Source of the DNA: Candidatus Altimarinota bacterium
GTDB taxonomy: Bacteria; Patescibacteriota; Gracilibacteria; UBA4473
DNA length: 64,000 nucleotides
Direction of reading: 5' to 3'
Assembly (NCBI GenBank): GCA_965231215.1
Contig: OZ246423.1
Location: forward strand, 192,001 to 256,000
The translations under genes were made by a program, and so were the position numbers. Shown in pieces: positions 3,610 through 60,188 of the stretch (position 1 is the stretch's first letter; each line of letters opens with the position of its first letter). The notes under the pieces are model-generated. The model saw only the letters and a list, made by a program, of their open reading frames with translations, searched no databases and had not been told where the DNA came from.

Positions 3610-4443
3610 CTATATTTTCCCTAACCAGGCCTTTTTCCAACACCGCCACCAGTAGACTCTTTTAATAAAACTAAAGGGAGCCACAACAAAAATAAATATT
3701 TGGAGTTGCCATTTTTTTAATCCTTTTGGTAGGATTTCTATCTCTGGGTGAAGCCGTTCAAAAGTAAGCGCATTGCTGCGTGCTTGCCTGGTTTGAGCCA
3801 TCATTTTTTCCAGCGTTTGCCTGTGATCATGAAAAACTTCTACCAGTTTATCATAATGGATCTGCATACCCTTTTTTTCTAATCGATATCCCAATTCACT
3901 ATCCTCAAATCCCCATCCATAAAATTTTTCACTAAACCGTTGTTCTCCAATAAGTTCACGTTTAAGCGAAATATTTGAAGTATAAAAATGATGCCAGTCT
4001 GGTGTTTTTCCTTTATCTAAGTTTTTAAAATCAAACTGCGCGTGAGACTCAAGCCATACATGAAATGGGTCTTTAATTAAATCTTCTGTCCAATGAATTC
4101 GTCCAAGCAACGCTTGATTTTTATTACTATTTTCTGAATGAAAAATATGAATTTTCTGTAACCAGTTTTTATCCGGAAAGGTATCATCTCCTATAAAAAC
4201 AATCACATCCCCTATAGATTTTTCTATACCAAAATTACGCGTACCGCTAACTCCCACTTTTTCACCTGTTTCTAAAATTTTCACATTATCATGTTCAATT
4301 ACAAAGTTAGATGACTGCCTTCCGTCAAAAACAACTAAAATTTCTGGGTTAATTTGATCAAATTTTTTATTCAAAAAAAGAGCCTCCAATACGCCTCCCA
4401 AAGTGCGGCGTCCAACGGTAGGAATGATGATAGAAATTTTCAT
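3610..4443 (-). CDS. glycosyltransferase family 2
   Basis: ISIIIPT, RNFGI, FIGDD (DxD-like), FYGWGFEDSELGYRL. Confidence 0.9.
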   Translation of the reverse strand: MKISIIIPTVGRRTLGGVLEALFLNKKFDQINPEILVVFDGRQSSNFVIEHDNVKILETGEKVGVSGTRNFGIEKSIGDVIVFIGDDTFPDKNWLQKIHIFHSENSNKNQALLGRIHWTEDLIKDPFHVWLESHAQFDFKNLDKGKTPDWHHFYTSNISLKRELIGEQRFSEKFYGWGFEDSELGYRLEKKGMQIHYDKLVEVFHDHRQTLEKMMAQTRQARSNALTFERLHPEIEILPKGLKKWQLQIFIFVVAPFSFIKRVYWWRCWKKAWLGKI

Positions 4444-19725: not shown

Positions 19726-22700
19726 TTAGATTGTGGTGAGAGCGGCTCTTTCTTTGGCATAAGTTCCATCATTCCAGAGCCCTTGACTTAATTCTTGCAC
19801 TTTTTCATCATACTTGTCAACTACATCTCGAATATCGCTAATAATACAGCTCTTGCCATTCCCAAAAGCCTCAAAAGCAGCGTAGTAAGCGTCTTGGCAT
19901 GGTTTCACCGCTTCTTCAAAGTGACGAGGGTCATTTTCTCTAAACTTTTCTATTTCACTCAAAAACACCCAAGGCGCATCCAGGACGGCTCCCAAACTAT
20001 AATCTCTCAATAATCCTTCATATTCTGATCTCAAGGAAGACGCTAAAACACCCATTGGCTTACCCGTAATCTCTTGGGCTAAAATATTATGGAAAATCCA
20101 ATACCTATGAGCATCATCTATATGCATTCGCCCTAAAACATCCGTCCTCCCTTTACCACCTTCTGGCACAAAGGGCGCTTGGATTTCATTATAACCAGGA
20201 GCATCATAAGCCATCATTCGAGCACCTGTTAAATCATTGTGATCACTAGTGTCAAAAGATTTAGCGTTAAACCTAGCTGTAACATCAGTGGAAAGAAGCA
20301 TCATACTCCCTGTAATACCACAGTCTCGATTTGGGATTCTTACTGAACCACAAAGTTGAATTTCTGGCGAATCTGCAGAAATGAGTCCTTCTTCTTGAAG
20401 CAGTCGAGCAAACAAGGTTATTTCTGCAGAAGTTGGCATTGGAGGAAGGCATAAGGATTCACCAGCATGAATTAGCTTAAATGATGTTTGACTCAACCCA
20501 AGAAAACGTCTTAACCGTCTAAACAAATCTTCAGTAAAAGTTCCATGAAGATGGACCTTTCCAGCAAGAGGCATCATCCCAAAGTATTTTTTTCTTTGCA
20601 TCAGTATGTATTCACGAAATACTGGGAAAAAGTCTTCTAAAAGTTCTACATTTGTTAATGCTGTGCCAATTTCTCCTCTAGAATTTGGGGACATCAATAA
20701 AGGGAGATCACTGCTATTTGGGTGTCTAGCTGCCAGTAAAAATCCTGAAAGCAACGAGGCTCTTGTAGCCATCTCCGCATAACCACCTGGATTTTCTGTG
20801 TCTTTAGCTAATGGTATTTTCATGGCGGCTTGCCACACGTCTCCATACTCTAAAGGCCATCCAAAACTACGGAAAAAATCAGAAAAGCCTTCAACCTTTA
20901 GGTAACGACCCTCAGCCCAAATAGTTTTAAAGCTCATCAAATCAACATTAACATCAGGATCGTTATGTTTAGAGCCAGTATCTGAAAGCTCACGCATAGC
21001 CGTATGCAGTTTAATAATGTTGGTAAGATCTGTATGAAGTAGTTCTATAATCGAAGCTACCGTAAGTTCACTATTTTTATCTAAACTGGATAAGTCTTTT
21101 AAAAGCTTTTCTGTATCAAAAATATCAAGCCTAAAAGCCTTGTCTAAAGTAGAAACATTTAAATCCCCAGAACGGAAAATCTGAGAAAAATTTTTAGGAT
21201 CAAAATCAGTAATTTCCTTAACTTCACTTAAAACTCTAGCGATAATTAACCCTGATATGTTATCCGTAATAGCTCCTGATTTTAGCAAAATATCAACGAC
21301 CCGAATAAGCCCTATCGAAAACATTGTTTTAGCTAAATTTTGGTTTTGGCTTTGCTCTTGTAAATCAAAGAGTTGGGCATTAACCCTAGATACAATTTTT
21401 CTAATAGGGTGATCACTATACCCTTCATAGAAATAATGATCTTCTGAAGTCTTAGCAGTATCCAGATCAATCATCAATGGATCACCTTTTTGATTTCTAT
21501 CAGCAACATATCGCCCCCAAACCTCTGTCCAAAAACAAGCATGAGGTATCAAATCCAGGTCTATGGCTGATAGTTGCCATATATCTCTAAAGAATCTAGA
21601 AGCCTCTAAAACTATAGCTTCATCCGTTAATTTCTTCTTGGTCTTTTCATATTCTTCACCCGAAAATCCTTCTAACATCCAAGAAAGCCAATCTTCTACC
21701 TGTTCCCAAGTAAGCAGCCCATCAGCAAAAAAACCAAGTAAATTATGCATAACCATTGACCGATTAAGATAACTCTCTGTATTTTGACGATGTACATCTC
21801 TTCTTTCTTCACTGCCTGGGGTCTCAAATAGCCATTCATAGCTAATAGCCGGATTTTGAATATTCAGAAAAATATGAAGATATCGTATAAAACCATCAGG
21901 TGGGTTTAGCGGATCTTCAAAGAACCCAGCACAACAACTAAAATAAAAGCTCGCAACATTAGCATAACTAGAACGAAACCTCTGCATACTTTCACACTCT
22001 CGATAGAATTTCTCATAAAAATCAACAAAAGCCAAGCGTGGATTTTCAAGGCTTGCAGGAACAGATGAATCTAAAACCTCCTCTGGATCTGAAAGTCTTA
22101 AATGAGTTAGTGAAGGTAGTGCTAATCGATCAGAAATATCTTGAACTCTCCCATCTCTAGTTTGTATGCTAGCAGGCCTCCTTTCTTTACGGCTTTTAGC
22201 TAAATAATGAGGCACGTGTTCAGCGATCATTGCATCATCCACCGAACTAAACAAAATAGTGTCTGCATCAATTTTTCCAGACAAAGCTATGAGATTTTGC
22301 TGTCCTGGTAATTCGACTATAGTCTTTTTATCTTCAAGTAAACCTAACATTTCATTGTTTGGTTTATTCCTATCAATAAGCCCAAAAAACTTCTCTAAAT
22401 ATTCAACCTTTTCATCCTGAGTTTCTTTTACTATTTCAGTAGCTTGAACAATAAGCTTTTTAGCTCTGTCTGGATTCCCTACACCAAATTTAGCCACCAC
22501 TCGACTTACAAAATCAACAGCCAAGCTCTCATCCCCTCCTAGTGCTGTACATAGACCCATACCTACCTCAGCATAAACTTTAGCCGTATCCTCATAAGCA
22601 AAATGACTTTTCTCGGCAATAGATGTTAAAGTCTCAAGAGGAAGGCCTAAATCTGCCTGAACTAAATCACAACGATGTTTAAACCACCAAGGAGCCTCCC

Positions 22701-24006
22701 CCTCTGAATAAACGCGGCTCATTAACTTTATTGTAGTCCTAATGGCTTTCTCGATATTTCCTACTTCTTTTTTAACTAGAAATATCTGCTCTACAAAATC
22801 CAGAATATTCAGACCATTGCTCAAAGCTACGTTGAAGTCTTCAACAAAATTATAAAACCACAAAGCGTTATCTCTAAAAGCTTTTTGGAAAACAGGCCGC
22901 AATGAAGAACGAGTAAACAAATACAGCAACTCAGCAGTACACAAATCACCTAATTGAGACTGAACTTTCTCACACCAACTTTCGTTTCTAGTGTTTAAGT
23001 CAACCCTTACTGGTTGGGCTAATTGGGCTGGACTCAAATTTCCAACACGCTTTGCCATCTCCGTGTAGGCGTATTCCAATTGCCGAAAATCAAAATCATC
23101 TGCCCATAACTGCCAGCAAACACCTAGAGATGATTTAATTCTAGAGTTAGCCCATTCTAGGGGGCTATCAAATGCTTCATTCTGATCTAAAGCTTCTTCT
23201 ACCGCTTTAAAAAATTGAGGCAAGGCAAAACTGATTTGATGCTGGCCATCTTTACAACGCCCTTGTTCAAAATACAACCCCATACAAAGACGATCTTGTG
23301 GAATAAAAATTGGGTTTTTAAGAGAAAAATTAAGTACAAGATGATCCTTATTATTAGCAATAGATCCTTCCCTTGTCCCTATGACTGAACCAGGTTGATT
23401 TATATAGTCATCAAAATTTGTATCTAAGTCTGTTGGATGTAAAAACCCATTAGCCCGGACTCTATTTCTAGAGTCTAGCTTTGAAGCTCCAGGCTGCCTT
23501 CGAGCTACCCCCAGAATCATAAAAAGTGGAATATTATCCCCAAACCTACGAAGCATCCCCTCAATTTCGCTATTAACCCTTTGCCTTGCATGATCTCCAA
23601 CGAAAAAACGTTCTCTAAACATTCTCGCTTTAAGATGAGTACGCTCTGTCTCAAAATCAAATTGTTTACCGGTAGGTTCTCTTGTGAAACTTTCCTCCAA
23701 ACGCAGACTAAAAGAATCCGGTAACCCAGACCATGGAGCCTGAGTACTCATTAGAGAAGGGTCGGTTAAGTTCAACCTAAGACTTCTATATGTAGGAAAC
23801 TCTAAGTCATCTTTAAAAAAATCTAAAGATTCTGCAAAAACACGCTCACAGTCTTTTTCGAACTGGGCTTGCTGCGCATCTATTTTCTCTTCAAGTTCTT
23901 TCCATTTTATATCGTCCGAACAATCATACTCTTCTTCATCGGGATCAATAAATCCAACTAAATCCAAATCTTCAAATTCCGGAGAGATTCTATCCAACCT
24001 GCTCAT
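19726..24006 (-). CDS. large hypothetical protein (1426 aa)
   Basis: Long uninterrupted ORF; upstream TTGACT..TATATA promoter-like sequence; no family recognised. Confidence 0.85.
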   Translation of the reverse strand: MSRLDRISPEFEDLDLVGFIDPDEEEYDCSDDIKWKELEEKIDAQQAQFEKDCERVFAESLDFFKDDLEFPTYRSLRLNLTDPSLMSTQAPWSGLPDSFSLRLEESFTREPTGKQFDFETERTHLKARMFRERFFVGDHARQRVNSEIEGMLRRFGDNIPLFMILGVARRQPGASKLDSRNRVRANGFLHPTDLDTNFDDYINQPGSVIGTREGSIANNKDHLVLNFSLKNPIFIPQDRLCMGLYFEQGRCKDGQHQISFALPQFFKAVEEALDQNEAFDSPLEWANSRIKSSLGVCWQLWADDFDFRQLEYAYTEMAKRVGNLSPAQLAQPVRVDLNTRNESWCEKVQSQLGDLCTAELLYLFTRSSLRPVFQKAFRDNALWFYNFVEDFNVALSNGLNILDFVEQIFLVKKEVGNIEKAIRTTIKLMSRVYSEGEAPWWFKHRCDLVQADLGLPLETLTSIAEKSHFAYEDTAKVYAEVGMGLCTALGGDESLAVDFVSRVVAKFGVGNPDRAKKLIVQATEIVKETQDEKVEYLEKFFGLIDRNKPNNEMLGLLEDKKTIVELPGQQNLIALSGKIDADTILFSSVDDAMIAEHVPHYLAKSRKERRPASIQTRDGRVQDISDRLALPSLTHLRLSDPEEVLDSSVPASLENPRLAFVDFYEKFYRECESMQRFRSSYANVASFYFSCCAGFFEDPLNPPDGFIRYLHIFLNIQNPAISYEWLFETPGSEERRDVHRQNTESYLNRSMVMHNLLGFFADGLLTWEQVEDWLSWMLEGFSGEEYEKTKKKLTDEAIVLEASRFFRDIWQLSAIDLDLIPHACFWTEVWGRYVADRNQKGDPLMIDLDTAKTSEDHYFYEGYSDHPIRKIVSRVNAQLFDLQEQSQNQNLAKTMFSIGLIRVVDILLKSGAITDNISGLIIARVLSEVKEITDFDPKNFSQIFRSGDLNVSTLDKAFRLDIFDTEKLLKDLSSLDKNSELTVASIIELLHTDLTNIIKLHTAMRELSDTGSKHNDPDVNVDLMSFKTIWAEGRYLKVEGFSDFFRSFGWPLEYGDVWQAAMKIPLAKDTENPGGYAEMATRASLLSGFLLAARHPNSSDLPLLMSPNSRGEIGTALTNVELLEDFFPVFREYILMQRKKYFGMMPLAGKVHLHGTFTEDLFRRLRRFLGLSQTSFKLIHAGESLCLPPMPTSAEITLFARLLQEEGLISADSPEIQLCGSVRIPNRDCGITGSMMLLSTDVTARFNAKSFDTSDHNDLTGARMMAYDAPGYNEIQAPFVPEGGKGRTDVLGRMHIDDAHRYWIFHNILAQEITGKPMGVLASSLRSEYEGLLRDYSLGAVLDAPWVFLSEIEKFRENDPRHFEEAVKPCQDAYYAAFEAFGNGKSCIISDIRDVVDKYDEKVQELSQGLWNDGTYAKERAALTTI

Positions 24007-24109
24007 TGCTATTTATATAAACTTTTTTTAAAAAAAGTCAATATTGGATATCACAAATTTTCTGTACAAAAAATTTGACCAACTTCGAACAAAAATTATA
24101 TTCAAGGGT

Positions 24110-25238
24110 GATGTTAAAAAAATTTCCTCTCCTAGGAGCCAAAAAAAACAAAAAAAAAATGAGAGTCATCTTCTACAACGAGGTAAAAAAAACATCTTCC
24201 TACTCACTAAAACCCACTAATACCGTTAAAAATGCTTCACGCGTTTGGGGGCGTTTTTGCCTGCTTATTGGTATTTCTTCTATTGCTTTCTTCGTAAATA
24301 CTGAAGCATTTTATGACGTAGGTGAAACCGATCCACACCTTTCAACTTTCAATCATCTTCGAGATGTAGGCATTATGAAAGGTTCAGCTGATGGCAATTT
24401 CTACCCAGAAAAATTAATGACCCGAGCCGAAGCCCTCACCGTAGCGCTCAGATCAGGAGGGATTTCTATTCCCCAGTATTCAGGGGAAATACATTTTAAT
24501 GATGTAGATCCAAATGCCTGGTATGCGTCTACTGTAGCCAGAGCCGTAGAAACCAACGTTATCCGACCTGGATACACCAATTTTAGACCCGAGCAAGCGG
24601 TATCCAAAGCTGAGTTTTTAACTTTTCTTTTCCGGGCAACACTGACCGACCTCAAACCACATTACTCATCTCGGAATGTAGCCAGCGACATCCCAAATGA
24701 CAGTTGGATGGTTCCTTACTTTGATTATGCCAAAAGATATCAAATCGCTCATCTCCCAGCCGATGACCTTTATAGGCCTGCCAAAGCTCTCTCCAAAAGA
24801 GAAGTGGCACTCATGACTTACCGTCAACTCAAACTCTTCCACGGAAATGATGAAACAAAATTACTAGTAGAACTCAATGCCGCGATAAATCAGTTTCTGG
24901 AACTCATCCGAAATGGAAAAAACGAAGAAGCCGAATTCCAAGTACACCGACTCCTCCAACTCAATGAAAAAATTGCCCGAACCCGAAACAGTAGTGACGC
25001 CGTAGCGGCACTAGCGATCTCCAGGTCTATGGAACACCTCAGTGAAAGTTTTCGATATTTTCGATACGGCAACAACCTCCGAGGCATTGAGAACCTACAT
25101 CTAGCCCTCAAACAAGCCAGGCGAGCCCAAGAAAAATCTGTTGCCATGGAAGGTTTTGCCCAAGAACTTGCTAACATCATTAGTGAAAGTCTCATCACCT
25201 ACACTCAACCAAGTTTAGGCAGATACAGTCAGAATTAA
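24110..25238 (+). CDS. S-layer homology (SLH) domain protein (start uncertain)
   Basis: FYDV..GIMKG..DGNFYPEK.MTRAEA; FNDVDPNAWY..FRPEQAVSKAEF; SDIPNDSW..YRPAKALSKRE. Confidence 0.88.
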
Positions 25239-25437: not shown

Positions 25438-25465
25438 TTGACAAAACACAAATCCTAATTAAACT
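25438..25465 (+). promoter_or_regulatory. sigma70-type promoter of the leader-proB unit
   Basis: TTGACA (25438-43), 16-nt spacer, TAAACT (25460-65), 10 nt before the leader ATG. Confidence 0.6.
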
Positions 25466-25475
25466 GAAAATACAA

Positions 25476-25523
25476 ATGAAAAATTTGATTGTTGTTCCCG
25501 CTCCACGCCCTCCGCAAAACTAG
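25476..25523 (+). CDS. Pro-rich attenuator leader peptide MKNLIVVPAPRPPQN
   Basis: 15-codon ORF with 4 Pro in codons 8-13 (CCC, CCA, CCT, CCG), lying between the promoter and a terminator in front of glutamate 5-kinase. Confidence 0.8.
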   Translation: MKNLIVVPAPRPPQN

Positions 25524-25597
25524 CGAGTGGTATTTTGGTACAACAATAAAATTTTCAAAACCTTCACTCGCTCAAACCCGATAGCGAGTATTTTTTT
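25521..25597 (+). promoter_or_regulatory. attenuator: antiterminator/terminator switch
   Basis: AGCGAGTG (25522-29, overlapping the leader stop) can pair with CACTCGCT (25565-72); alternatively ACTCGCT pairs with AGCGAGT (25583-89), followed by ATTTTTTT. Confidence 0.8.
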
Positions 25598-25611
25598 ATG
25601 CAGGAAATTAA

Positions 25612-26415
25612 ATGCTAAACAAAATTATTATCCCAAAGTACGGAACTAACACCCTCACTACAGAAACTATAGATGGGGGAAAAGCTATTGATCATAATAA
25701 CATGGCAGAACATGGAAAACTCATTAATGCTCTTACTGATCCATCTTTAATTGTCAGTTCAGGAGCCGTTGGATACGGAAAAGCTCTAGCTGATTTTAGC
25801 TGGATTGAAGATCCTGTTCTTAGAAAAAGAATCCAAGCTATGAAAGGAAATCCTCATTTAGCTATCGCCTGGGATAAATTTATTAAAGATAAAGAAGTCT
25901 TACAAGGTCTCGCAACTCATAGAGCTTTTGCTAACGGAACTAAGCAGGAAGTAAGTAGAGTGCTTAAAGCTATTTACAGTGATCCTCTGAAATGTGTAGC
26001 GGTACTAAACGATAATGATTTCCTTTCTGATGAAGAATTGAAAAATTTAAGAGGCGGAGATTTTGGAGATAATGATAAAGAAGCCATACTCGCCGCAGAA
26101 GTATGTCTAGACTTTGCTGAAAGAGTAGAAGTCATCATTCAGACTTCAACCAACGGAGTACTAGATAGTACAGGGAGAACAATAGATCAACTTAAAGTGA
26201 GTGACCTTAGTGACGAAGTTATAAGAGAGCTCTGTGGAGAAACCACTAGCGAAGATGGAACTGGTGGAATGGCCGGAAAACTAACCCATGGAAGAGAACT
26301 CATGAAACAGTTTGGAGATCGTGTAAGTCTCGTAATTATTAATGGAAAAAACCCACAACAATTCAAAAACTTACTAGCCGGTAAATCTGTAGGAACTCAA
26401 CTTTTAGCCGCTTAA
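25612..26415 (+). CDS. proB: glutamate 5-kinase (PUA-less, divergent)
   Basis: KYGTNTLT, VSSGAVGYG, LNDND (NEND-like), FGDND, GTGGMAGKL, IINGKNP..VGT. Confidence 0.82.
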   Translation: MLNKIIIPKYGTNTLTTETIDGGKAIDHNNMAEHGKLINALTDPSLIVSSGAVGYGKALADFSWIEDPVLRKRIQAMKGNPHLAIAWDKFIKDKEVLQGLATHRAFANGTKQEVSRVLKAIYSDPLKCVAVLNDNDFLSDEELKNLRGGDFGDNDKEAILAAEVCLDFAERVEVIIQTSTNGVLDSTGRTIDQLKVSDLSDEVIRELCGETTSEDGTGGMAGKLTHGRELMKQFGDRVSLVIINGKNPQQFKNLLAGKSVGTQLLAA

Positions 26416-26452: not shown

Positions 26453-27148
26453 ATGGAAATTTTAGTTCTCATACTGACCATCGCGGCTATTGATTTTTTA
26501 TCCATTCTGACACCTGGACAAGACTTTGCGATAGTTACCCGCAACACCTTAAAATACTCCAAAACTATTGGTATTTATACCGTTTTTGGAATTGGGTTTA
26601 TTACGCTTTGCCACTGCTTACTCGCGATGACCGGACTCAGTATCATCATTACCAAAAATCCAAACCTCATGGCCGGGATCAAAACTATTGGAGCTCTCTA
26701 CCTTATCTATCTAGGCACTAATTTTTTCAAAAATGCAAAAAACTTAGATATAGGATCTGAGTCCGGACTTCTCATAAAAAATGATTCACCTGAAAACTCA
26801 AAAAAACAATCCCCGAACCCAAAAGTCCGGACTCAAGATTCTATATCCCCTAAAAAAGCATTCCAAACCGGCGCTATTGCTAACCTCTTTAACATAGAAC
26901 CTATAATGGCCTTTGTAAGTATTTTTGCCATCATACTACCACCAGAAACTCAGACTTCTACAAAGCTCATTATTTGTGTGCTCCTGCCGTTAAACACTAT
27001 CTTATGGTTGTGTTTTATAACCCATATTTTCAGTGTGAAAAAAGTGCAGTACTTCCTGGCTCATCGAATGAAGGAATGCGAGCAAATCATTGGGATTATT
27101 CTCATTTTTTTCGGTTCAAAAACTTTAATAGAGCACAAAAACAACTAA
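26453..27148 (+). CDS. LysE/RhtB family amino-acid exporter with in-frame palindromic insert
   Basis: LTPGQDFAIV, GALYLIYLG, AFQTGAIANLFN, IIGIILIFFG. Confidence 0.88.
   Translation: MEILVLILTIAAIDFLSILTPGQDFAIVTRNTLKYSKTIGIYTVFGIGFITLCHCLLAMTGLSIIITKNPNLMAGIKTIGALYLIYLGTNFFKNAKNLDIGSESGLLIKNDSPENSKKQSPNPKVRTQDSISPKKAFQTGAIANLFNIEPIMAFVSIFAIILPPETQTSTKLIICVLLPLNTILWLCFITHIFSVKKVQYFLAHRMKECEQIIGIILIFFGSKTLIEHKNN
26747..26847. repeat. inverted repeat in frame within the LysE-family gene
   Basis: GATATAGGATCTGAGTCCGGACTT ... AAGTCCGGACTCAAGATTCTATATC. Confidence 0.75.
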
Positions 27149-27158
27149 ACTTTCCTCG

Positions 27159-28832
27159 ATGCAAAAAATCGTTCAAGACTACTTAGCAAAAAACTGGAAT
27201 CCAGACTACGCTACAAAGCTCAACTTTGCTCCAGTACCCAAAGGACAGTCCGGGGATCTAGCGATGAACTTTTTTGCCCTTACCAAAGAACTCAGCAAAT
27301 CCCCTATTGAAATTGGAAATGAAGTATCTGAAGTTTTAAACGGATGTGACATTTTAGAAAAAACTGAAATGGCAGGGCCTTATTTAAATTTATACTTCAA
27401 ACCTGAAAAGTTCTTTGAAACCGCGCTCCAAACCCCACTCAAAACTGAGTTACTTAAAAACCAAACCGTTGTAGTTGAATACTCTTCCCCCAACACCAAC
27501 AAACCACTTCATCTGGGACACATGAGAAATCATGCCTTAGGGATTTCAGTTTCTAATCTACTTGAAGCTGTTGGAGCTAAGGTCGTTCGAGCCGCCATTA
27601 TTAATGATCGCGGAATTCACATTTGCAAATCTATGCTCGCCTACCAAAAGTTTGGTAACGATGAAACCCCAGAATCTACCGGCAAAAAACCAGATGAATT
27701 TGTAGGGCATTATTACGTAATGTTTGAAACCGAAAACAAAAAAGATGAATCACTCCTTAAAGAAGCTCAAGAAATGTTACGCGCCTGGGAAGATGGAGAC
27801 CCAGAAATTCGAAAGCTTTGGGAACAAATGAACGAGTGGACTTACCAAGGACATCAAAAAACCTATGACAGGCAGGGCGTTACTTTTGACAAAAAATACT
27901 ATGAATCTGACACCTACCAAATGGGAAGAGAATTTGCTCTCAAAGGGTTAGAAGAGGGAATCTTTTATAAAAAAGACGGAGCGGTCTGGATTGACCTATC
28001 AGATCAAGGGTTAGATGAGAAAATTATTATTCGTTCAGATGGAACCACCGTCTATGTAACCCAAGATCTCGCCACTACTTTTTTGAGAGCTAAAGATTTC
28101 AACTTCGATCAACATATCTGGGTAGTTGCCGATGAACAGAATTATCATTTTCAGGTACTTATTGCCTGTTTAGATAAACTTAAATTATGTGAGAAAGAAA
28201 AATTATTTCACCTGGGATATGGACTAGTACACCTGCCTGACGGACGAATGAAATCTCGAGAAGGAACCGTAGTCGATGCGGACAACCTCATGGATCAGCT
28301 GAAAGAAATGGCTACTACCAAGGTAGAAGAAAACAATAATGATTTCACAGCCGATGAAACTGAAGCTATTGCCGAAGCCGTACAAAACGCCGCTTGGAAA
28401 TTTTATTTACTGAAAACGTCTCCTAATAAAACCATTACTTTTGAAGCCGAAAAATCTATTGATTTTCAAGGCGCCACAGGGCCTTATCTTCAATATGCCG
28501 GAGTCAGAATAAAATCTATTTTACGTAAAGCCAGTAACTTCGATGTTAAAAATATCGCCGCCCTTGGCGAGGCAGAAAAACCATTAGGGGTAAAAATACT
28601 GGAATGGCCAGAGGTGCTAAACCGCGCCGCGGAAAACAAAAACCCAACCTATATGGTAACCTACTTACTAGAATTGGCACAGATCTGGTCTAGTTTTTAC
28701 GCCGAAAATTCAGTGCTGAATGCCGAAGCCCCTGATACAAAAAATGCCAGATTGGTACTGGCCCAAAAAGTGTTAGAAGTGCTCGAAACTGGGCTCAATA
28801 TCTTAGGCATTGAGGTGCCAGAAAAAATGTAA
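27159..28832 (+). CDS. argS: arginyl-tRNA synthetase
   Basis: VEYSSPNTNKPLHLGH, RSDGT..YVTQDL, MKSREGTVV, GATGPYLQYA, LGIEVPEKM. Confidence 0.97.
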   Translation: MQKIVQDYLAKNWNPDYATKLNFAPVPKGQSGDLAMNFFALTKELSKSPIEIGNEVSEVLNGCDILEKTEMAGPYLNLYFKPEKFFETALQTPLKTELLKNQTVVVEYSSPNTNKPLHLGHMRNHALGISVSNLLEAVGAKVVRAAIINDRGIHICKSMLAYQKFGNDETPESTGKKPDEFVGHYYVMFETENKKDESLLKEAQEMLRAWEDGDPEIRKLWEQMNEWTYQGHQKTYDRQGVTFDKKYYESDTYQMGREFALKGLEEGIFYKKDGAVWIDLSDQGLDEKIIIRSDGTTVYVTQDLATTFLRAKDFNFDQHIWVVADEQNYHFQVLIACLDKLKLCEKEKLFHLGYGLVHLPDGRMKSREGTVVDADNLMDQLKEMATTKVEENNNDFTADETEAIAEAVQNAAWKFYLLKTSPNKTITFEAEKSIDFQGATGPYLQYAGVRIKSILRKASNFDVKNIAALGEAEKPLGVKILEWPEVLNRAAENKNPTYMVTYLLELAQIWSSFYAENSVLNAEAPDTKNARLVLAQKVLEVLETGLNILGIEVPEKM

Positions 28833-28968: not shown

Positions 28969-31284
28969 TTATAACAAAAACTTCGCCTCCCTCAACCCAT
29001 CAATTTTTTGTACCACCTGTAGAGAATCAATATCGATTTTACCTACGTATAAATCAGCGATTTCTCCGCCCTTTTGAAGATATTTTTCAATATCACGATT
29101 CCCCATAAAGTAGATTGCATCTTTAGTAAAGGCGCCTTTTGATTCACTATCGGCATACCCTCTTTTGGCCTTGAGGCACAATTTCCAAGCCAGGTCATCA
29201 CTTACATTAAAGGTGCTTTTTAGATAGTGGAATAAGTCGTGAAACCCCATTCGATTAGCCAAATAAATTGTAATAATTTGATAGGCAGGGGTGAGGAATT
29301 TTTCTCCAAGGTCTAACCCTAATTGATTTTGATTCCAGACAGCTAATCCTTCTTCAGTTCGAAGATAGTTAGCGGTTCCTCGTTCTAAAATTCGAAAAGG
29401 CTGCAGCTTTCCATTTTCATATCGGAACACATGTGTCCCGATCTCATGCACCAACAACGCATGCAATCTATTTCTTCTAAACTTAGCTCCTTTTTTTAGG
29501 AGTATCGCATCTCTTTTGGTTACCTGAATATCAGCTACAGATTCATCCAAAATTTTGATCTGCCAATGCCCAAGCCCATACTCTTTCAAAAAGTTATTCA
29601 AGATTTCTAAAGATTTTTTAAAATCAAGTTCTTCACTTTCATCAGCCTTAATTTTGCGTTCATGGTCTCTAATAAATTTTTGAGCCTCTTGATAAATATG
29701 TCGTGTAACTTTACCGAAGACTCTTTCTGAAAACAGTGCATACTCTGAACTTCCACGCGCCTCTAGCATTGACAGCCTATCCTCTAATTCTTGAATTTTT
29801 TTCTGAAACAGGGGGAATAATTCATGATTTACCTCTGGTAGTTTTTTGAGATCATTCCGCATAGCCGGAATATCTAGATTAATATCTTTATAGGTAAACC
29901 GAGGTGAAAATTCTGGACTCGCCAAAAATATTTCTTTTTGTTCTCTCAGATTCCGTGGATTGATAAATGACAGTAACTTTATCTGTGTATCAATCTCGGC
30001 AATTTTTAAATCAATATTTTTGAGCATACGTTCATCTACAGAATGAGTAGAAATCTCGGCAAGATTTTCTTTTTCAAACTTTTTATTTGGGTCAATATAA
30101 AAATCACTCAAAAACTTACCAGCCAGGATGAGGTCAGCGTCTTTTAAATCCTTGTGACTTTTCTCTACTGGAAGTTTCAATCTTTTGCCGTGAAGTGTAA
30201 TATCTAAAACTTTATTTTTTTCATCATAATACTCCTTAGCAATAAAATTTTTTTCAGCATTAAGCGCTACACGAGCCACTAAACTTTGTGGTGGATCAGA
30301 ATTCAAAAGTACATTCTCATAGATACCCACAATAGGTTTTGGGATGAAGTGTTCTTCATACACAGATTTTTCAGCAAAAAGAGTTTTCGCTACATCCACC
30401 CCTTCTTCTGGGGTAAGGACTTTTAGATCTACTACTTTATCCAGCCTTTTTTTAAGCGGGACTCTATTGGCCACTTGAATTTTAAGTCCCGGACGAGCAT
30501 TAAGTTCCAATATCTTAACTCCGGTATTAGTAACCACTAAATCTACTCCCAAAAACCCAATTTTGGTAACTGACTGAGACTTAGCTACCGCATGCAAAAT
30601 CTCATCCCAATAAGGCACTTTAAATCCCGCAGCTTTTTCTCCGTTAGGAAGTCTGGTAATGAATTTAGATTTCTTAGCCGCCCCTGTAGTAATGCCCGAA
30701 CCAATATCTACTCCCATAGCAATTGCGCCAAGCTCCATATTGGCTTTGCCCTCAGATTCTACCGTTGGAACTCGTAGCATAGCCATCACTGGCACCATAT
30801 TAAATACGATTACCCGAACATCTGGAAGGCCTGTTTGAGTCAACAATCTGAAGTCAGGATGTGGATCTAATTTTTCCTCAAAAATGATATAATCATAAGT
30901 CCCTGAAATGGAATATTTCCCTTCTAAAATGTCAATGCAGTGCAGATATAAATGTTCTTGATCATATTTTTTACCAGAAACCGTCACCCAATTTTTCCCT
31001 TTACGCTTATCAATCACCAAAATCCCGCCTCCCGCAAAACCTCTGTTAGGTTTAATTACAAAAGATTCTGGTAACCCTTCAAAAAATTCATTCGTTAACT
31101 GACGTTGGTTTTTTACGGTATGAAAAAGTCTAGCCGCTCCAATCCCTCGGGATTCTAAAAACTGCTTGGTAAAAATTTTATCATCAGCAAATTTTTTATT
31201 ACTACTCGAGTTATACCGCGAAATATAGAGTAAATTTCGCGCATTCATTCCCAAAATGCCAGAGGTATCGTTAGTAAACAACAT
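28969..31284 (-). CDS. alpha-L-glutamate ligase-like ATP-grasp fused to an inactive retropepsin-like domain and a DUF1704/MATCAP-type metallocarboxypeptidase
   Basis: GMNARN, ADDK..TK, FVIKPNRG..GGGI, GLPDVRVIV, AMLRVPT..S.GKAN, LELNARPGL.IQ.AN; IVGIYE..ARVALNA..GKFLSDFYIDP; HEIGTH, TEEGLA, KRG, FTKDAIY, LYVGKI. Confidence 0.85.
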   Translation of the reverse strand: MLFTNDTSGILGMNARNLLYISRYNSSSNKKFADDKIFTKQFLESRGIGAARLFHTVKNQRQLTNEFFEGLPESFVIKPNRGFAGGGILVIDKRKGKNWVTVSGKKYDQEHLYLHCIDILEGKYSISGTYDYIIFEEKLDPHPDFRLLTQTGLPDVRVIVFNMVPVMAMLRVPTVESEGKANMELGAIAMGVDIGSGITTGAAKKSKFITRLPNGEKAAGFKVPYWDEILHAVAKSQSVTKIGFLGVDLVVTNTGVKILELNARPGLKIQVANRVPLKKRLDKVVDLKVLTPEEGVDVAKTLFAEKSVYEEHFIPKPIVGIYENVLLNSDPPQSLVARVALNAEKNFIAKEYYDEKNKVLDITLHGKRLKLPVEKSHKDLKDADLILAGKFLSDFYIDPNKKFEKENLAEISTHSVDERMLKNIDLKIAEIDTQIKLLSFINPRNLREQKEIFLASPEFSPRFTYKDINLDIPAMRNDLKKLPEVNHELFPLFQKKIQELEDRLSMLEARGSSEYALFSERVFGKVTRHIYQEAQKFIRDHERKIKADESEELDFKKSLEILNNFLKEYGLGHWQIKILDESVADIQVTKRDAILLKKGAKFRRNRLHALLVHEIGTHVFRYENGKLQPFRILERGTANYLRTEEGLAVWNQNQLGLDLGEKFLTPAYQIITIYLANRMGFHDLFHYLKSTFNVSDDLAWKLCLKAKRGYADSESKGAFTKDAIYFMGNRDIEKYLQKGGEIADLYVGKIDIDSLQVVQKIDGLREAKFLL

Positions 31285-57735: not shown

Positions 57736-57768
57736 ATGAAGAAACTCCTTGTGGTACTCGTAAAATAG
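57736..57768 (+). CDS. ilv attenuator leader peptide MKKLLVVLVK
   Basis: 10-codon ORF with six consecutive Leu/Val codons upstream of acetolactate synthase. Confidence 0.85.
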   Translation: MKKLLVVLVK

Positions 57769-57828
57769 TTCGCTTGACCCCTTTAGTAAGGATTCAGGCG
57801 GAGCTCTAAAAATGAGAACCGCTTTTTT
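57769..57828 (+). promoter_or_regulatory. ilv attenuator antiterminator/terminator
   Basis: TTCGCTTGA (57769-77) pairs with TCAGGCGGA; alternatively GGCGG..CTC-TAAAAAT-GAG..CCGC is followed by TTTTTT. Confidence 0.78.
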
Positions 57829-57850
57829 AACACAGTATAAACCTCATATC

Positions 57851-59701: not shown

Positions 59702-59702
59702 C

Positions 59703-60188
59703 ATGGAGAAGCATATTTTGATTGTTACCTCACAAAACGTTCCAGGCGTACTAGCTAAAATGTCTGGTATACTCAGAAGAAAACTTTTTAATGTAGAATC
59801 TCTTACCGTAGGGCAAACCTCAAATCCTGAAAAAGCTCGTTTTACAGTTATTATTGCTGGAGATTTCGAGGAGGCTCAGAAAGCCGCACAATCGATTCAA
59901 AAAATGGTAGAAATTCTAAGTATCCGTATTGCAGAACCCAAAGATACAATTAGACGCGAAATCGTACTAGCTAAACTAAGTTTAATTGATTTTCAAGATT
60001 CTCAACTACTTGAAGAAATTGAAGGTGATGTCCTAGTCAAAGAAATTTATAGAGAAGGTCACACCGTTTGTTTTGAGTTTATAGATACGGCCTCTAATCT
60101 TGAAAAACTGCTGGGAAAAATTACCCAAAATAATATTGAGGTGCTTGAATGGGTGCGTAGTGGCGTTATCGCCATTGAGAAGAGTTAA
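59703..60188 (+). CDS. ilvN: acetolactate synthase small (ACT) subunit
   Basis: QNVPGVLAKMSGILRRKLFNVESLTVG..RFTV; REIVLAKL; EWVRSGVIAI. Confidence 0.9.
   Translation: MEKHILIVTSQNVPGVLAKMSGILRRKLFNVESLTVGQTSNPEKARFTVIIAGDFEEAQKAAQSIQKMVEILSIRIAEPKDTIRREIVLAKLSLIDFQDSQLLEEIEGDVLVKEIYREGHTVCFEFIDTASNLEKLLGKITQNNIEVLEWVRSGVIAIEKS

What the first reader, a model, noticed from the sequence alone, without database searches (positions are those of the whole stretch)
25438..26415. Apparent proline-sensing, ribosome-mediated attenuator in front of glutamate 5-kinase
Seen: promoter TTGACA-16-TAAACT, then a 15-codon ORF MKNLIVVPAPRPPQN missing from the ORF track, whose codons 8-13 use all four Pro codons once each. 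AGCGAGTG overlaps the leader stop and is complementary to CACTCGCT, the 5' arm of a terminator (ACTCGCT-loop-AGCGAGT-ATTTTTTT) ending 14 nt before proB. Established: this is the geometry of trp/his/leu/ilv/thr/phe attenuators, where a ribosome at the stop masks the antiterminator and a stalled one frees it. ProB catalyses the first step of Pro synthesis. Known Pro-responsive controls are T-boxes (Firmicutes proBA) and Pro-rich leaders of Mg2+-related genes (mgtL, mgtP). I do not know of a classical leader-peptide attenuator for a proline biosynthesis gene. Inference: a Pro-tRNA (or EF-P/RPP stalling) sensor controlling proB, and possibly the downstream LysE-family gene and argS.
Basis: partly seen in the sequence, partly recalled or inferred. 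Interest (0 to 1): 0.9.

Follow-up and report, generated by a model that had tools for sequence, protein, structure and literature searches.

The report
Proline leader-peptide attenuator before proB
A tiny proline-rich reading frame and a pair of competing RNA hairpins in front of a glutamate 5-kinase gene look like a genuine ribosome-operated switch that reads the cell's proline supply, a kind of switch long known for other amino acids but seemingly not described for proline synthesis.

Summary
A conserved promoter, a 15-codon ORF (MKNLIVVPAPRPPQN, window 25476-25523), an antiterminator arm on the stop codon and a terminator with a U-tract 14 nt before proB are all present.

The design recurs in relatives:
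- It precedes all 4 orthologues in related Gracilibacteria-type genomes and 1 metagenome contig.
- It precedes more distant proB genes of the class: 13 of 111 loci pass an automatic screen for Pro, against 0-2 for each other residue.
- Arm sequences differ between lineages but stay complementary.
- In two relatives the operon is leader-proB-proC-proA.

A blind screen of this genome returns this site as the only Pro hit. It also finds the same design with Thr before thrS, Phe/Tyr/Trp before DAHP synthase, Leu before leuA and Leu/Val before ilvBN.

Caveats:
- This genome has no proA or proC, so proB is an orphan followed by a LysE-type exporter and argS.
- One tRNA-Pro(UGG) reads all four Pro codons.
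- There is no expression evidence.

Verdict: a real classical attenuator with a proline specificity that my searches did not find in print.

The parts
25438..25465 (+). Sigma-70-type promoter: -35 TTGACA (25438-43), 16-nt spacer, -10 TAAACT (25460-65). Only 10 nt separate it from the leader ATG, and there is no Shine-Dalgarno sequence.
   Evidence: The -35 box is conserved in 6 of 6 aligned orthologous leaders. Five leaders of this genome share the same layout, with 10-13 nt between the -10 box and the ATG.
25476..25523 (+). Leader ORF MKNLIVVPAPRPPQN plus TAG. Pro codons at 25497-99, 25503-05, 25509-11 and 25512-14; Arg codon at 25506-08.
   Evidence: Pro-rich ORFs sit in the same place in G001, G003, G011, G015 and L107. 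It is the only Pro hit in the genome-wide screen.
25507..25531 (+). Helix '1:2' (anti-antiterminator, possible pause hairpin). The Pro/Arg codon stretch 25507-25515 pairs with 25523-25531.
   Evidence: It is part of the minimum-free-energy fold. Equivalent hairpins appear in L107, G003, G001 and G015.
25477..25557 (+). Long outer helix enclosing helix 1:2. Leader codons 1-7 (25477-25495) pair with 25540-25557.
   Evidence: Minimum-free-energy fold. Similar outer helices appear in L107, G003, G001 and G015.
25522..25572 (+). Antiterminator '2:3'. AGCGAGUGG 25522-25530 pairs with UCACUCGCU 25564-25572, with an inner helix 25533-38 : 25555-60.
   Evidence: -14.8 kcal/mol, z -4.04. RNAalifold picks this helix as the consensus of 6 orthologues. 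The arm lies on or next to the stop codon in 14 of 14 leaders.
25566..25597 (+). Intrinsic terminator '3:4'. ACUCGCU 25566-72, 10-nt loop, AGCGAGU 25583-89, A, U7 25591-97.
   Evidence: -8.4 kcal/mol, z -4.05. Terminators with a T-run lie 12-15 nt before proB in the six close orthologous loci.
25612..26415 (+). Glutamate 5-kinase-like gene (proB orthologue, 267 aa, no PUA domain). It is an orphan in this genome.
   Evidence: the only solved relatives are G5K or P5C synthase. Orthologues head proB-proC-proA in G001 and G015. There is no proA or proC here.
26453..27148 (+). LysE/RhtB-family amino-acid exporter gene, 37 nt after proB. No terminator was found between them.
27159..28832 (+). argS (arginine--tRNA ligase), 10 nt after the exporter gene. 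It is probably in the same transcript.
   Evidence: (TIGR00456 454 bits, cut-off 261.65).

Best explanation
This is a classical ribosome-mediated (leader-peptide) transcription attenuator that reads the supply of charged tRNA-Pro.

Proposed mechanism:
1. Transcription starts a few bases before the leader ATG (near-leaderless).
2. RNA polymerase transcribes a 15-codon ORF with four Pro codons.
3. If Pro-tRNA(UGG) is plentiful, the ribosome runs to the TAG stop and covers AGCGAGUGG (25522-30). If no ribosome is present, that arm is held by the Pro-codon stretch in helix 1:2. In both cases UCACUCGCU is free to pair with AGCGAGU, the hairpin plus U7 forms, and transcription ends 14 nt before proB.
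4. If Pro-tRNA is scarce, the ribosome stalls at the early Pro codons (8, 10, perhaps 12). This disrupts helix 1:2 but leaves AGCGAGUGG exposed.
5. The exposed arm pairs with UCACUCGCU (antiterminator, -14.8 against -8.4 kcal/mol), and polymerase reads on into proB, the LysE-type gene and argS.

Shown here: the sequence elements, the alternative folds, their conservation with changed arm sequences, the specificity for Pro, and the use of the same design at other amino-acid operons of this genome.

Inferred, not shown: translation of the ORF, the transcription start, termination at 25597, and the response to proline.

The element evolved in front of proB-proC-proA. This genome kept the switch and proB but lost proC and proA.
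For: Anatomy and energies are.

Orthologous leaders:
- G001: MQTTVLVSTPQPPLS
- G003: MRNISLVPTPRRPLN
- G015: MNLQQTVILPQPPLHQE
- G011: MFLTNTLPVPTPPALTLRREE
- L107: MQNTVLVPAPRRPLN

Two Pro columns are invariant in 6 of 6, with third-base variation (CCA/CCC/CCT). Each leader has a terminator, an antiterminator and a 1:2-type fold.

More distant families of the class show the same logic with unrelated arm sequences. Examples are G221, where CUUCUGGGG at the stop pairs with CCCCAGAAG, and G257, G024, G343, G347, G298 and G377.

Automatic screen of 111 proB upstream regions:
- 27 have a Pro-enriched short ORF, and 13 of these also pass the terminator and antiterminator tests.
- The other 19 residues give 0-2 passes each, 8 passes among 469 flagged.
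- 6 of those 8 are Pro-leader ORFs already in the Pro list, flagged for a second residue.

Further support:
- The antiterminator arm starts at -12 to +1 and ends at -5 to +12 relative to the stop codon in 14 of 14 leaders.
- Each leader's stop region pairs better with its own terminator arm than with those of other loci. The mean is -14.1 against -9.1 kcal/mol, and the own arm ranks 1-5 of 14.
- The genome-wide screen of G000 gives Pro = 1 hit, this site.
- The same screen finds a Thr leader before thrS, a Phe/Tyr/Trp leader before DAHP synthase, a Leu leader before leuA and a Leu/Val leader before ilvBN.
- All five leaders have -35, -10 and then 10-13 nt to the ATG.
- G001 and G015 have leader-proB-proC-proA.
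- The genome has one tRNA-Pro(UGG).
Against: - There are no expression or 3'-end data.
- The terminator is modest: 7 bp, a 10-nt loop, -8.4 kcal/mol. The consensus scan does not list it.
- There is no Shine-Dalgarno sequence. Translation rests on an inferred near-leaderless start.
- The last two Pro codons lie only 9-12 nt before the antiterminator arm. A ribosome stalled there would mask part of the arm, so only the earlier Pro codons fit the model cleanly.
- proA and proC are absent from this 99.3%-complete single-contig genome. They were also not found in G003 and G011. Inducing proB on proline hunger therefore has no evident pay-off here.
- Only 13 of 111 proB loci of the class pass the screen.
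- Column-wise covariation is weak among the six close sequences. 2 of 8 consensus pairs show two-sided changes, and the covariation term is +0.42.
- The screen thresholds were my own. Loci entering the cross-pair control had already passed a pairing threshold.
Confidence: 0.75

Rival explanations
1. The switch is a sensor of EF-P-dependent polyproline stalling, that is of translation capacity, and not of proline supply. Ribosomes would pause at RPPQ because peptide-bond formation between prolines is slow, and read-through would report EF-P activity.
For: The window leader has consecutive Pro codons, PP at codons 12-13. efp is present in the genome at 220.6 bits. 11 of 14 leaders contain PP or PPP.
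Against: - 3 of 14 leaders have no consecutive Pro: G003 PTPRRP, L107 PAPRRP and G347 PVPLP.
- In the window the PP pair is the part of the leader closest to the antiterminator arm, 9-12 nt away. A stall there would mask the arm instead of freeing it.
- The sister leaders of the same genome use Thr, Leu, Val and Phe runs before cognate genes. That is the logic of tRNA charging.
Confidence: 0.1
2. The switch is multivalent and reads both Pro and Arg codons. It has been re-tuned to serve arginine-related genes, here argS and a LysE/ArgO-type exporter, after proC and proA were lost.
For: - All 4 leaders whose operon lacks proC-proA carry Arg codons among or after the Pro codons: G000 PAPRPP, G003 PTPRRP, L107 PAPRRP, G011 ..LRREE. 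The 2 leaders with proC-proA carry none: G001 TPQPP, G015 LPQPP.
- In G000, argS follows in the same gene string with gaps of 37 and 10 nt.
- Relatives have separate Arg-rich leader attenuators before argS or argG-argH.
- The Pro and Arg leader regions are weakly similar, z 1.5-8.4 against shuffles.
Against: - The sample is six loci that are not independent.
- G000 has only one Arg codon.
- In G011 the Arg codons lie inside the antiterminator arm itself (GGCGAG) and may be structural.
- G003 and L107 already have their own Arg leader for the arginine genes, so the RR in their Pro leader is not needed for that.
- The similarity is inflated by the shared promoter and T-run.
Confidence: 0.1
3. 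The element is a relic in this genome. The attenuator and proB are leftovers of a lost proBCA operon, and neither is under selection any more.
For: - There is no proA or proC in G000.
- G000 ProB scores lowest of the five orthologues against the proB model: 65 bits against 84-111.
Against: - The promoter, ATG, four Pro codons, stop and all three helices are intact.
- The ProB frame is open, and all motifs invariant in the family are kept. They align with solved glutamate 5-kinases.
- The same orphan state with an intact leader is seen in G003, G011 and L107/L108. This argues for retention.
Confidence: 0.04
4. The element is an untranslated RNA switch, either a riboswitch or a protein-binding site. 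On this view the short ORF is coincidental, and the CCN-rich stretch is kept only for base pairing.
For: - The Pro-codon stretch does pair with the antiterminator arm, so part of its conservation could be structural.
- There is no Shine-Dalgarno sequence.
Against: - An ATG-started frame that keeps the Pro codons in frame and ends on the antiterminator arm is present in 14 of 14 loci, despite unrelated sequences.
- Invariant Pro columns vary at the third base.
- Four other leaders of the genome carry runs of the residue that matches the downstream gene.
- No Rfam family reaches its gathering score, and no T-box match appears up to E = 10.
Confidence: 0.03

Closest known systems
Classical leader-peptide attenuators of amino-acid operons (trpL, hisL, leuL, thrL, pheL, ilvL of Enterobacteria; predicted ones in Actinobacteria, PMC1262725)
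   Same: - A short ORF enriched in codons of the end-product amino acid.
- Helices 1:2, 2:3 and 3:4, with the terminator's U-tract just before the first gene.
- A stop codon placed so that a terminating ribosome masks the antiterminator.
   Different: - The specificity is proline. The passages I read in the Actinobacteria survey mention proline 0 times.
[quoted passage not shown]
- No Rfam leader family matches: Phe_leader scores 16.8 bits against a gathering score of 55.
- The host is a Gracilibacteria-type candidate-phylum bacterium.
- The leader ORF has no Shine-Dalgarno sequence and starts about 10 nt after the -10 box.
mgtL and mgtP, the Pro-codon leader ORFs of Salmonella mgtA and mgtCBR (PMC3641672, abstract and passages read)
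   Same: A short ORF with several Pro codons couples the level of charged tRNA-Pro to the choice between alternative leader RNA structures, and so to transcription of the downstream genes.
   Different: - Those leaders control Mg2+ transport and virulence genes, are long, and integrate other signals such as Mg2+ and ATP.
- This one is a compact single-signal attenuator in front of the proline pathway's first enzyme.
- There is no detectable sequence relationship.
Pro-specific T-box leaders of proBA in Firmicutes (recalled, no paper read here)
   Same: Both use transcription attenuation before proB, driven by the charging state of tRNA-Pro.
   Different: T-boxes bind the uncharged tRNA directly and have no leader ORF. 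No T-box match appears in the Rfam scan up to E = 10.
Leaderless or RBS-less leader ORFs of Actinobacteria: C. glutamicum ilvBNC (Morbach 2000, seen only as a reference title) and mycobacterial Cys leaders (PMC1262725)
   Same: The leader peptide is translated without a ribosome-binding site, close to the 5' end of the transcript.
   Different: The phylum and the amino acid differ. The mycobacterial Cys leaders lack obvious terminators, whereas this one has one.
Attenuators before aminoacyl-tRNA synthetase genes: pheM-pheST of E. coli (recalled); predicted trpS and leuS attenuators in Streptomyces (PMC1262725)
   Same: A synthetase gene lies downstream of a leader-peptide attenuator. In this genome that holds for thrS with a Thr leader, and for argS downstream of this element.
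   Different: Here argS sits behind a Pro leader carrying a single Arg codon, so leader and synthetase are not matched.

Membership tests
Classical ribosome-mediated transcription attenuator | A short leader ORF enriched in codons of one amino acid | tested here: met
   4 Pro in 15 codons. At least 3 Pro in 7 codons in 14 of 14 related leaders. Pro is specific: 13 loci pass, against 0-2 for each other residue.
Classical ribosome-mediated transcription attenuator | An intrinsic terminator (hairpin plus U-tract) between the leader ORF and the first structural gene | tested here: met
   7-bp stem plus U7, -8.4 kcal/mol, z -4.05, 14 nt before proB. It is a prediction only, and the consensus scan misses it.
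Classical ribosome-mediated transcription attenuator | A mutually exclusive antiterminator that shares a strand with the terminator | tested here: met
   25522-30 pairs with 25564-72, -14.8 kcal/mol. It is the consensus helix of 6 orthologues. Pairing of own against foreign arms is -14.1 against -9.1 kcal/mol.
Classical ribosome-mediated transcription attenuator | A stop codon placed so that a terminating ribosome masks the antiterminator, with regulatory codons upstream of it | tested here: met
   The arm overlaps or abuts the stop codon in 14 of 14 leaders. The first Pro codon lies 9-33 nt before the arm.
Classical ribosome-mediated transcription attenuator | The leader is translated, and read-through rises when the cognate amino acid is limiting | not testable with these tools
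A wet-lab reporter or Term-seq is needed.
Classical ribosome-mediated transcription attenuator | The downstream genes make or charge the sensed amino acid | tested here: inconclusive
   The operon is proB-proC-proA in G001 and G015. In the window's genome only proB remains, with no proA or proC.
Rfam leader families (Thr, Trp, His, Leu, Phe leaders) and T-box | A match to the covariance model at the gathering score | tested here: not met
   The best leader match is Phe_leader at 16.8 bits against 55. There is no T-box match up to E = 10.
Glutamate 5-kinase (ProB) | A score above the curated cut-off of the equivalog model TIGR01027 | tested here: not met
   65.1 bits against a cut-off of 186. 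The orthologues score 84-111 bits.
Glutamate 5-kinase (ProB) | An amino-acid-kinase fold whose nearest characterised relatives are G5K, with the family motifs kept | tested here: met
   Pfam AA_kinase 28.4 bits, gathering score 24.9. All 4 PDB hits with the single protein and all 8 with the profile are G5K or P5C synthase. The motifs KxGT, SSGA, NxND, GDND and GTGGM align.
Glutamate 5-kinase (ProB) | Genomic association with proA and proC | tested here: inconclusive
   The association is present in 2 of 5 genomes with the orthologue, G001 and G015. It was not found in G000, G003 or G011.

The most novel reading that the evidence does not exclude
These candidate-phylum bacteria run much of their small amino-acid metabolism on one modular, near-leaderless attenuator design. 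Its specificity would be re-programmed simply by swapping the codons in the leader.
- Pro controls proB(CA).
- Arg controls argS and argG-argH.
- Thr controls thrS.
- Phe/Tyr/Trp control DAHP synthase.
- Leu controls leuA.
- Leu/Val control ilvBN.

The Pro and Arg versions would be specificities not described before, related to each other by duplication. The mixed Pro/Arg leaders (PAPRPP, PxPRRP) would be intermediates caught in a switch of specificity. That switch would accompany loss of proC-proA and recruitment of the orphan ProB-like kinase, an exporter and argS to a new, arginine-linked role.
Probability: 0.25. Interest if true: 0.8.

Novelty: new variant of a known kind. Interest (0 to 1): 0.66.

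Why it matters
**A new specificity.** Leader-peptide attenuation is a textbook mechanism, but its known biosynthetic targets are trp, his, leu, thr, phe and ilv. Proline synthesis is described as lacking enzyme-level control in E. coli (PMC6345581). It is controlled by T-boxes in Firmicutes (recalled). A conserved Pro-codon attenuator in front of proB(CA) would add an amino acid to the classical set.

**Regulation in unculturable bacteria.** It also shows that bacteria of the candidate phyla radiation use this ribosome-coupled logic widely. Their gene regulation is almost unstudied because they are hard to culture. At least five operons in this 1.3-Mb genome use it, and relatives have Arg-codon versions.

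**Easy to test.** The element is about 160 nt and self-contained. It should be directly testable in an E. coli proline auxotroph.

**A metabolic question.** The orphan proB is kept with its switch in three genomes that lack proA and proC. This asks what a lone glutamate 5-kinase is for.

Tried and rejected
**1. A Flavobacterial 'MPPPxLxMxxNLV' ORF upstream of proB.** It was flagged and rejected. It is the out-of-frame reading of the conserved C-terminus of the upstream proA gene.

**2. Other ORFs flagged by composition alone.** In some searches most flagged ORFs had GTG or TTG starts, lay far upstream or came from GC-rich genomes. 14 of the 27 loci flagged for Pro failed the terminator and antiterminator tests. 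L280 (G115) passes, but its T-run is 108 nt from the gene and the ORF starts with TTG, so I treat it as doubtful.

**3. Alternative genetic code.** Relatives in this class read TGA as a sense codon. This was rejected for this genome. Table-11 ORFs of 600 nt or more cover 82% of it, and 92 of 795 end in TGA.

**4. First genome-wide screen.** It was flawed. It kept only ORFs counted from the first in-frame start, which gave 41 codons here, so it missed the real leader. I found the cause and re-ran the screen with an intergenic mask. One search also corrected my ATG coordinate from 25477 to 25476.

**5. Column-wise covariation counts (count of structure pairs).** They were not run. The MAFFT alignments A2 and A3 are out of structural register for G000 against the others in the 3' arm, and for G011 throughout. 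I used per-sequence folds, RNAalifold on A3 and an alignment-free cross-pair control instead. No covariance model was built.

**6. Public sequencing runs.** No RNA holder is listed.

**8. The protein-atlas search** on the 141-aa protein could not be served. Pfam gives no match for that protein even at E up to 10. My impression of an acetyltransferase-like GxGIG motif is recalled and untested.

**9. A substitute for ProA in G000.**
- The single aldehyde dehydrogenase is a generic one. Its best match is lactaldehyde dehydrogenase at 450 bits, below that model's cut-off.
- No Semialdhyde_dh match exceeds its cut-off.

**10. Paralogy of the Pro and Arg leaders.** It is only suggestive: z 1.5-8.4 against mononucleotide shuffles, with shared promoter and T-run.

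**11. Literature.**
- I ran 10 full-text searches. None found a leader-peptide attenuator for proB or proBA.
- The library lacks most subscription journals. I could not read Lopatovskaya et al. 2010 (Mol Biol 44:128, seen only as a reference) or Vitreschak et al. 2004. I recall, without being able to verify it, that the Lyubetsky/Seliverstov group may have published on the regulation of proline biosynthesis.
- The novelty claim is therefore limited to what was searched.
- No supplementary files were consulted.

**12. Tools not used.** Structure prediction, complex prediction and the search of protein representatives were not used, because the questions did not need them.
Full report
**1. What is in the sequence**

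- Promoter: TTGACA (25438-43), 16 nt, TAAACT (25460-65).
- Leader: ATG at 25476, giving MKNLIVVPAPRPPQN, with TAG at 25521-23.
- Pro codons: CCC, CCA, CCT and CCG at codons 8, 10, 12 and 13.
- Antiterminator 5' arm: AGCGAGUGG (25522-30), overlapping the stop codon.
- Shared strand: UCACUCGCU (25564-72).
- Terminator 3' arm: AGCGAGU (25583-89), followed by A and U7 (25591-97).
- proB ATG at 25612, 14 nt after the U-tract.

Folding results:
- Terminator: -8.4 kcal/mol, z -4.05.
- Antiterminator: -14.8 kcal/mol, z -4.04.
- Whole leader: -29.5 kcal/mol, z -3.62, 0 of 200 shuffles as good.

The Pro/Arg codon stretch 25507-15 pairs with 25523-31, the antiterminator arm, inside a long outer helix (25477-95 with 25540-57). 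This is the counterpart of helix 1:2 of the trp attenuator. The element therefore has the full four-segment layout.

The promoter scan lists the site at 10 of 12 matches. However, promoter-like sites in the region are no more frequent than in shuffles. The terminator scan omits the hairpin because its loop is 10 nt. No Rfam family comes near its gathering score. Phe_leader scores 16.8 bits against 55, and there is no T-box match.

**2. The genes**
- 25612-26415 encodes an amino-acid kinase. Pfam AA_kinase scores 28.4 bits. The best curated match is proB, but far below its cut-off: TIGR01027 65.1 bits against 186.
- Its only solved relatives are glutamate 5-kinases and P5C synthases. That is 4 of 4 hits with the protein and 8 of 8 with a profile of the orthologues. 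The family motifs align.
- Downstream, with gaps of 37 and 10 nt, lie a LysE/RhtB-type exporter gene and argS.
- Upstream is an S-layer-homology protein gene.

**3. The organism**
- The window lies in a 1,326,059-bp single-contig genome, 99.3% complete, with 39.9% G+C.
- The closest public contigs carrying the orthologue are titled Candidatus Gracilibacteria.
- Some members of that class read TGA as a sense codon, so I checked the code. Table-11 ORFs of 600 nt or more cover 82% of the genome, and TGA ends 92 of 795 of them. The standard bacterial code therefore applies.

**4. Conservation in orthologous loci**

Among 61 related genomes, close orthologues (38-41% identity) occur in four: G001, G003, G011 and G015. 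A metagenome scan adds L107, and L108 whose upstream region is cut off.

Every one with upstream sequence has a Pro-rich leader ORF in the same place:
- G001: MQTTVLVSTPQPPLS
- G003: MRNISLVPTPRRPLN
- G015: MNLQQTVILPQPPLHQE
- G011: MFLTNTLPVPTPPALTLRREE
- L107: MQNTVLVPAPRRPLN

Two Pro positions are invariant in 6 of 6 and vary at the third base (CCA, CCC, CCT). The -35 box is conserved. Each sequence folds on its own into a terminator, an antiterminator whose 5' arm sits on the stop codon, and a 1:2-type hairpin.

The arms differ but stay complementary:
- G000: ACUCGCU / AGCGAGU
- G001, G003 and L107: ACUCG-C-UCUA / UAGA-A-CGAGU
- G015: UCGCUCUGA / UCAGAGUGA
- G011: ACUCGCC / GGUGAGU

The upstream arm follows these changes: AGCGAGUGG, AGCUGGGUGA, GAGUGAGUGG, GGCGAG.

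RNAalifold on the six picks the antiterminator helix as the consensus. Only 2 of its 8 pairs show two-sided changes, and the covariation term is +0.42. Formal covariation among these close sequences is therefore weak.

**5. Wider spread and specificity**

A profile search of 401 genomes of the class found proB-like genes in 108. I examined 111 upstream regions. These were all 109 places plus two weaker ones.

The automatic screen required three things:
- a short ORF of 8-40 codons with at least 3 of one residue in 7 codons;
- a hairpin of -6 kcal/mol or better abutting a T-run 25-115 nt after the stop;
- a duplex of -8 kcal/mol or better between the stop region and the terminator's 5' arm.

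Results:
- For Pro, 27 loci have an enriched ORF and 13 pass everything.
- For the other 19 residues, 0-2 loci pass each, 8 passes among 469 flagged.
- 6 of those 8 passes are Pro-leader ORFs already in the Pro list, flagged for a second residue.

The passing loci include other families of the class with unrelated sequences:
- G221, where CUUCUGGGG at the stop pairs with CCCCAGAAG of the terminator
- G257
- G024
- G343, G347 and G298, which are TGA-recoding lineages
- G377

One further passing locus, L280, is doubtful.

In 14 of 14 leaders the antiterminator arm starts between -12 and +1 and ends between -5 and +12 relative to the stop codon. Each stop region pairs better with its own terminator arm than with those of other loci: mean -14.1 against -9.1 kcal/mol, own rank 1-5 of 14. 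These loci had already passed a pairing threshold, so this control is only moderately informative.

**6. The genome's regulatory style**

A blind screen of all intergenic DNA of this genome gives one Pro hit, the finding itself (one search was a flawed first version). It also returns four leaders whose enriched residue matches the next gene:

| Leader | Next gene(s) |
|---|---|
| MQNTTNTTTAKAG | thrS |
| MQKFFYGFFYFWFNRGLA | DAHP synthase |
| MKNFSLLLLLTLEIRAV | leuA...leuC |
| MKKLLVVLVK (window 57736-68) | ilvB-ilvN |

All five leaders share a layout: -35 TTGAC(A/T) or TTTACA, a 16-17 nt spacer, a TAnnnT -10 box, then 10-13 nt to the ATG, with no Shine-Dalgarno sequence. I infer that the leader ORFs are translated from near-leaderless transcripts. 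A reference title seen reports such a case for C. glutamicum ilvBNC.

This is independent support for the Pro element. The same machine, with the residue changed, sits in front of cognate genes.

**7. What the switch controls**
- In G001 and G015 the leader heads proB-proC-proA. This ties the kinase to proline synthesis and makes the proline logic coherent for the family.
- In the window's genome, proA and proC are not found with the curated models or by tblastn with the relatives' proteins.
- The only aldehyde dehydrogenase is a generic one.
- G003 and G011 also lack them. Synteny (SLH gene, leader, proB ... argS) shows that proC-proA were lost.
- The orphan proB keeps an open frame and all family motifs.

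What a lone glutamate 5-kinase does there is unexplained.

**8. The signal**
- The genome has one tRNA-Pro (UGG) among 35 tRNAs. The four different Pro codons are therefore read by one tRNA and carry no isoacceptor information.
- efp is present.
- Three of 14 leaders have no consecutive Pro codons. In the window the PP pair is the part closest to the antiterminator arm, so a stall there would mask the arm.
- These points, together with the Thr, Leu, Val and Phe sister leaders, favour sensing of charged tRNA-Pro over EF-P-type stalling.

With the usual ribosome footprint of about 12 nt 3' of the A-site codon's first base (established knowledge), the geometry works out as follows:
- Stalls at codons 8, 10 and 12 leave 25522-30 free.
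- A stall at codon 13 covers its first bases.
- A ribosome at the stop codon covers all of it.

**9. Arginine codons**
- The four leaders whose operon lacks proC-proA carry Arg codons: PAPRPP, PTPRRP, PAPRRP and ..LRREE. The two with proC-proA have none.
- Relatives also have separate Arg-rich leaders with the same terminator and antiterminator logic.
  - G001 has two, MLTQTVVSNRRRRPS and ..HNRRRRYRRR, between proA and argS.
  - G003 has one after proB, before a 141-aa gene and argS.
  - L107 has one before a 143-aa gene and argG. In L108 the string continues to argH.
- The window's genome has none of these genes or leaders. Its argS sits directly behind proB and the exporter gene.

A dual Pro/Arg reading is therefore possible. 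It rests on six related loci, and in G011 the Arg codons are part of the arm itself.

**10. Comparison with what is known**

The element works like the classical attenuators and meets every defining feature that can be tested in silico. It belongs to no Rfam family.
- The closest functional relatives for the signal are mgtL and mgtP of Salmonella. These are Pro-codon ORFs that respond to charged tRNA-Pro but control Mg2+ and virulence genes (PMC3641672, passages read).
- For the target, the closest relatives are the Pro T-boxes of Firmicutes (recalled).
- E. coli proline synthesis is stated to lack enzyme-level regulation (PMC6345581).
- A survey of Actinobacteria does not mention proline (PMC1262725).
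- Ten full-text searches found no proline attenuator for proB.
- Key comparative papers from the Lyubetsky group could not be read, so priority is not settled.

**11. Verdict**

This is a real, conserved, classical leader-peptide attenuator with a proline specificity in front of proB, in a candidate-phylum bacterium that uses the design widely. I rate it a new variant of a known kind. Confidence in the mechanism is about 0.75. It is unproven experimentally, and in this particular genome the pathway it once served has been lost.

Noticed in passing
window 57736-57768 (+), with ilvB 57812-59701 and ilvN 59682-60188: A Leu/Val leader ORF, MKKLLVVLVK, with promoter, hairpin and T-run lies before the acetolactate synthase genes. 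The T-run falls inside the listed ilvB ORF, so the true ilvB start is probably the ATG near 57851.
   Followed up: partly
L286:227-268 (+), thrS at L286:341-2128 (genome 655326-655367): A Thr-rich leader, MQNTTNTTTAKAG, with terminator and antiterminator lies directly before threonine--tRNA ligase. This is a leader-peptide attenuator on a synthetase gene.
   Followed up: partly
L287:233-289 (+), gene at L287:363-1412 (genome 464182-464238): A leader rich in aromatic residues, MQKFFYGFFYFWFNRGLA, lies before a DAHP synthase (aroFGH type).
   Followed up: partly
L288:3972-3919 (-), leuA L288:2323-3846 (-), leuC L288:374-1771 (-): A Leu-run leader, MKNFSLLLLLTLEIRAV, lies before leuA...leuC. This is a classic leu-type attenuator in a 1.3-Mb candidate-phylum genome.
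   Followed up: partly
L216:3552-3599 and 3710-3766; L217:4705-4761; L107:3791-3847: Arg-codon leaders (MLTQTVVSNRRRRPS, ..HNRRRRYRRR, ..HAHRRRYRRR, ..HARRRRYRWK) have terminator and antiterminator folds. They lie before argS or before a 141-143-aa gene plus argG-argH. I did not search the literature for an arginine leader-peptide attenuator.
   Followed up: partly
L004:2438-2863, L107:3922-4353; a longer relative lies before argS in G011 (L292): A conserved 141-143-aa protein (72% identical between G003 and L107) is always next to arginine genes. It has no Pfam match even at E up to 10, and its function is unknown.
   Followed up: partly
window 25612-26415; whole genome G000: proB is an orphan. 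No proA, proC, argG or argH is found in this closed genome, yet the kinase and its switch are intact. The same holds in G003 and G011.
   Followed up: yes
window 28969-31284 (-): A 771-aa fusion of a RimK-like ATP-grasp glutamate ligase domain with a MATCAP/QEGLA carboxypeptidase-like domain converges on argS.
   Followed up: no
window 19726-24006 (-): A 1426-aa ORF has no Pfam family at E up to 0.001. It lies next to an SLH-domain protein gene (24075-25238), so it is possibly a cell-surface protein.
   Followed up: no
L036, L048, L093, L095, L098, L103, L126 and L143, upstream of proB: In Flavobacteriia proA lies directly upstream of proB. An apparent conserved Pro-rich small ORF there is only the out-of-frame reading of the end of proA. 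Leader-ORF screens can be caught by this.
   Followed up: yes
genome G000, tRNA set: aragorn finds only 35 tRNA genes, with a single tRNA-Pro (UGG) and four tRNA-Arg (UCG, CCU, GCG, UCU).
   Followed up: no
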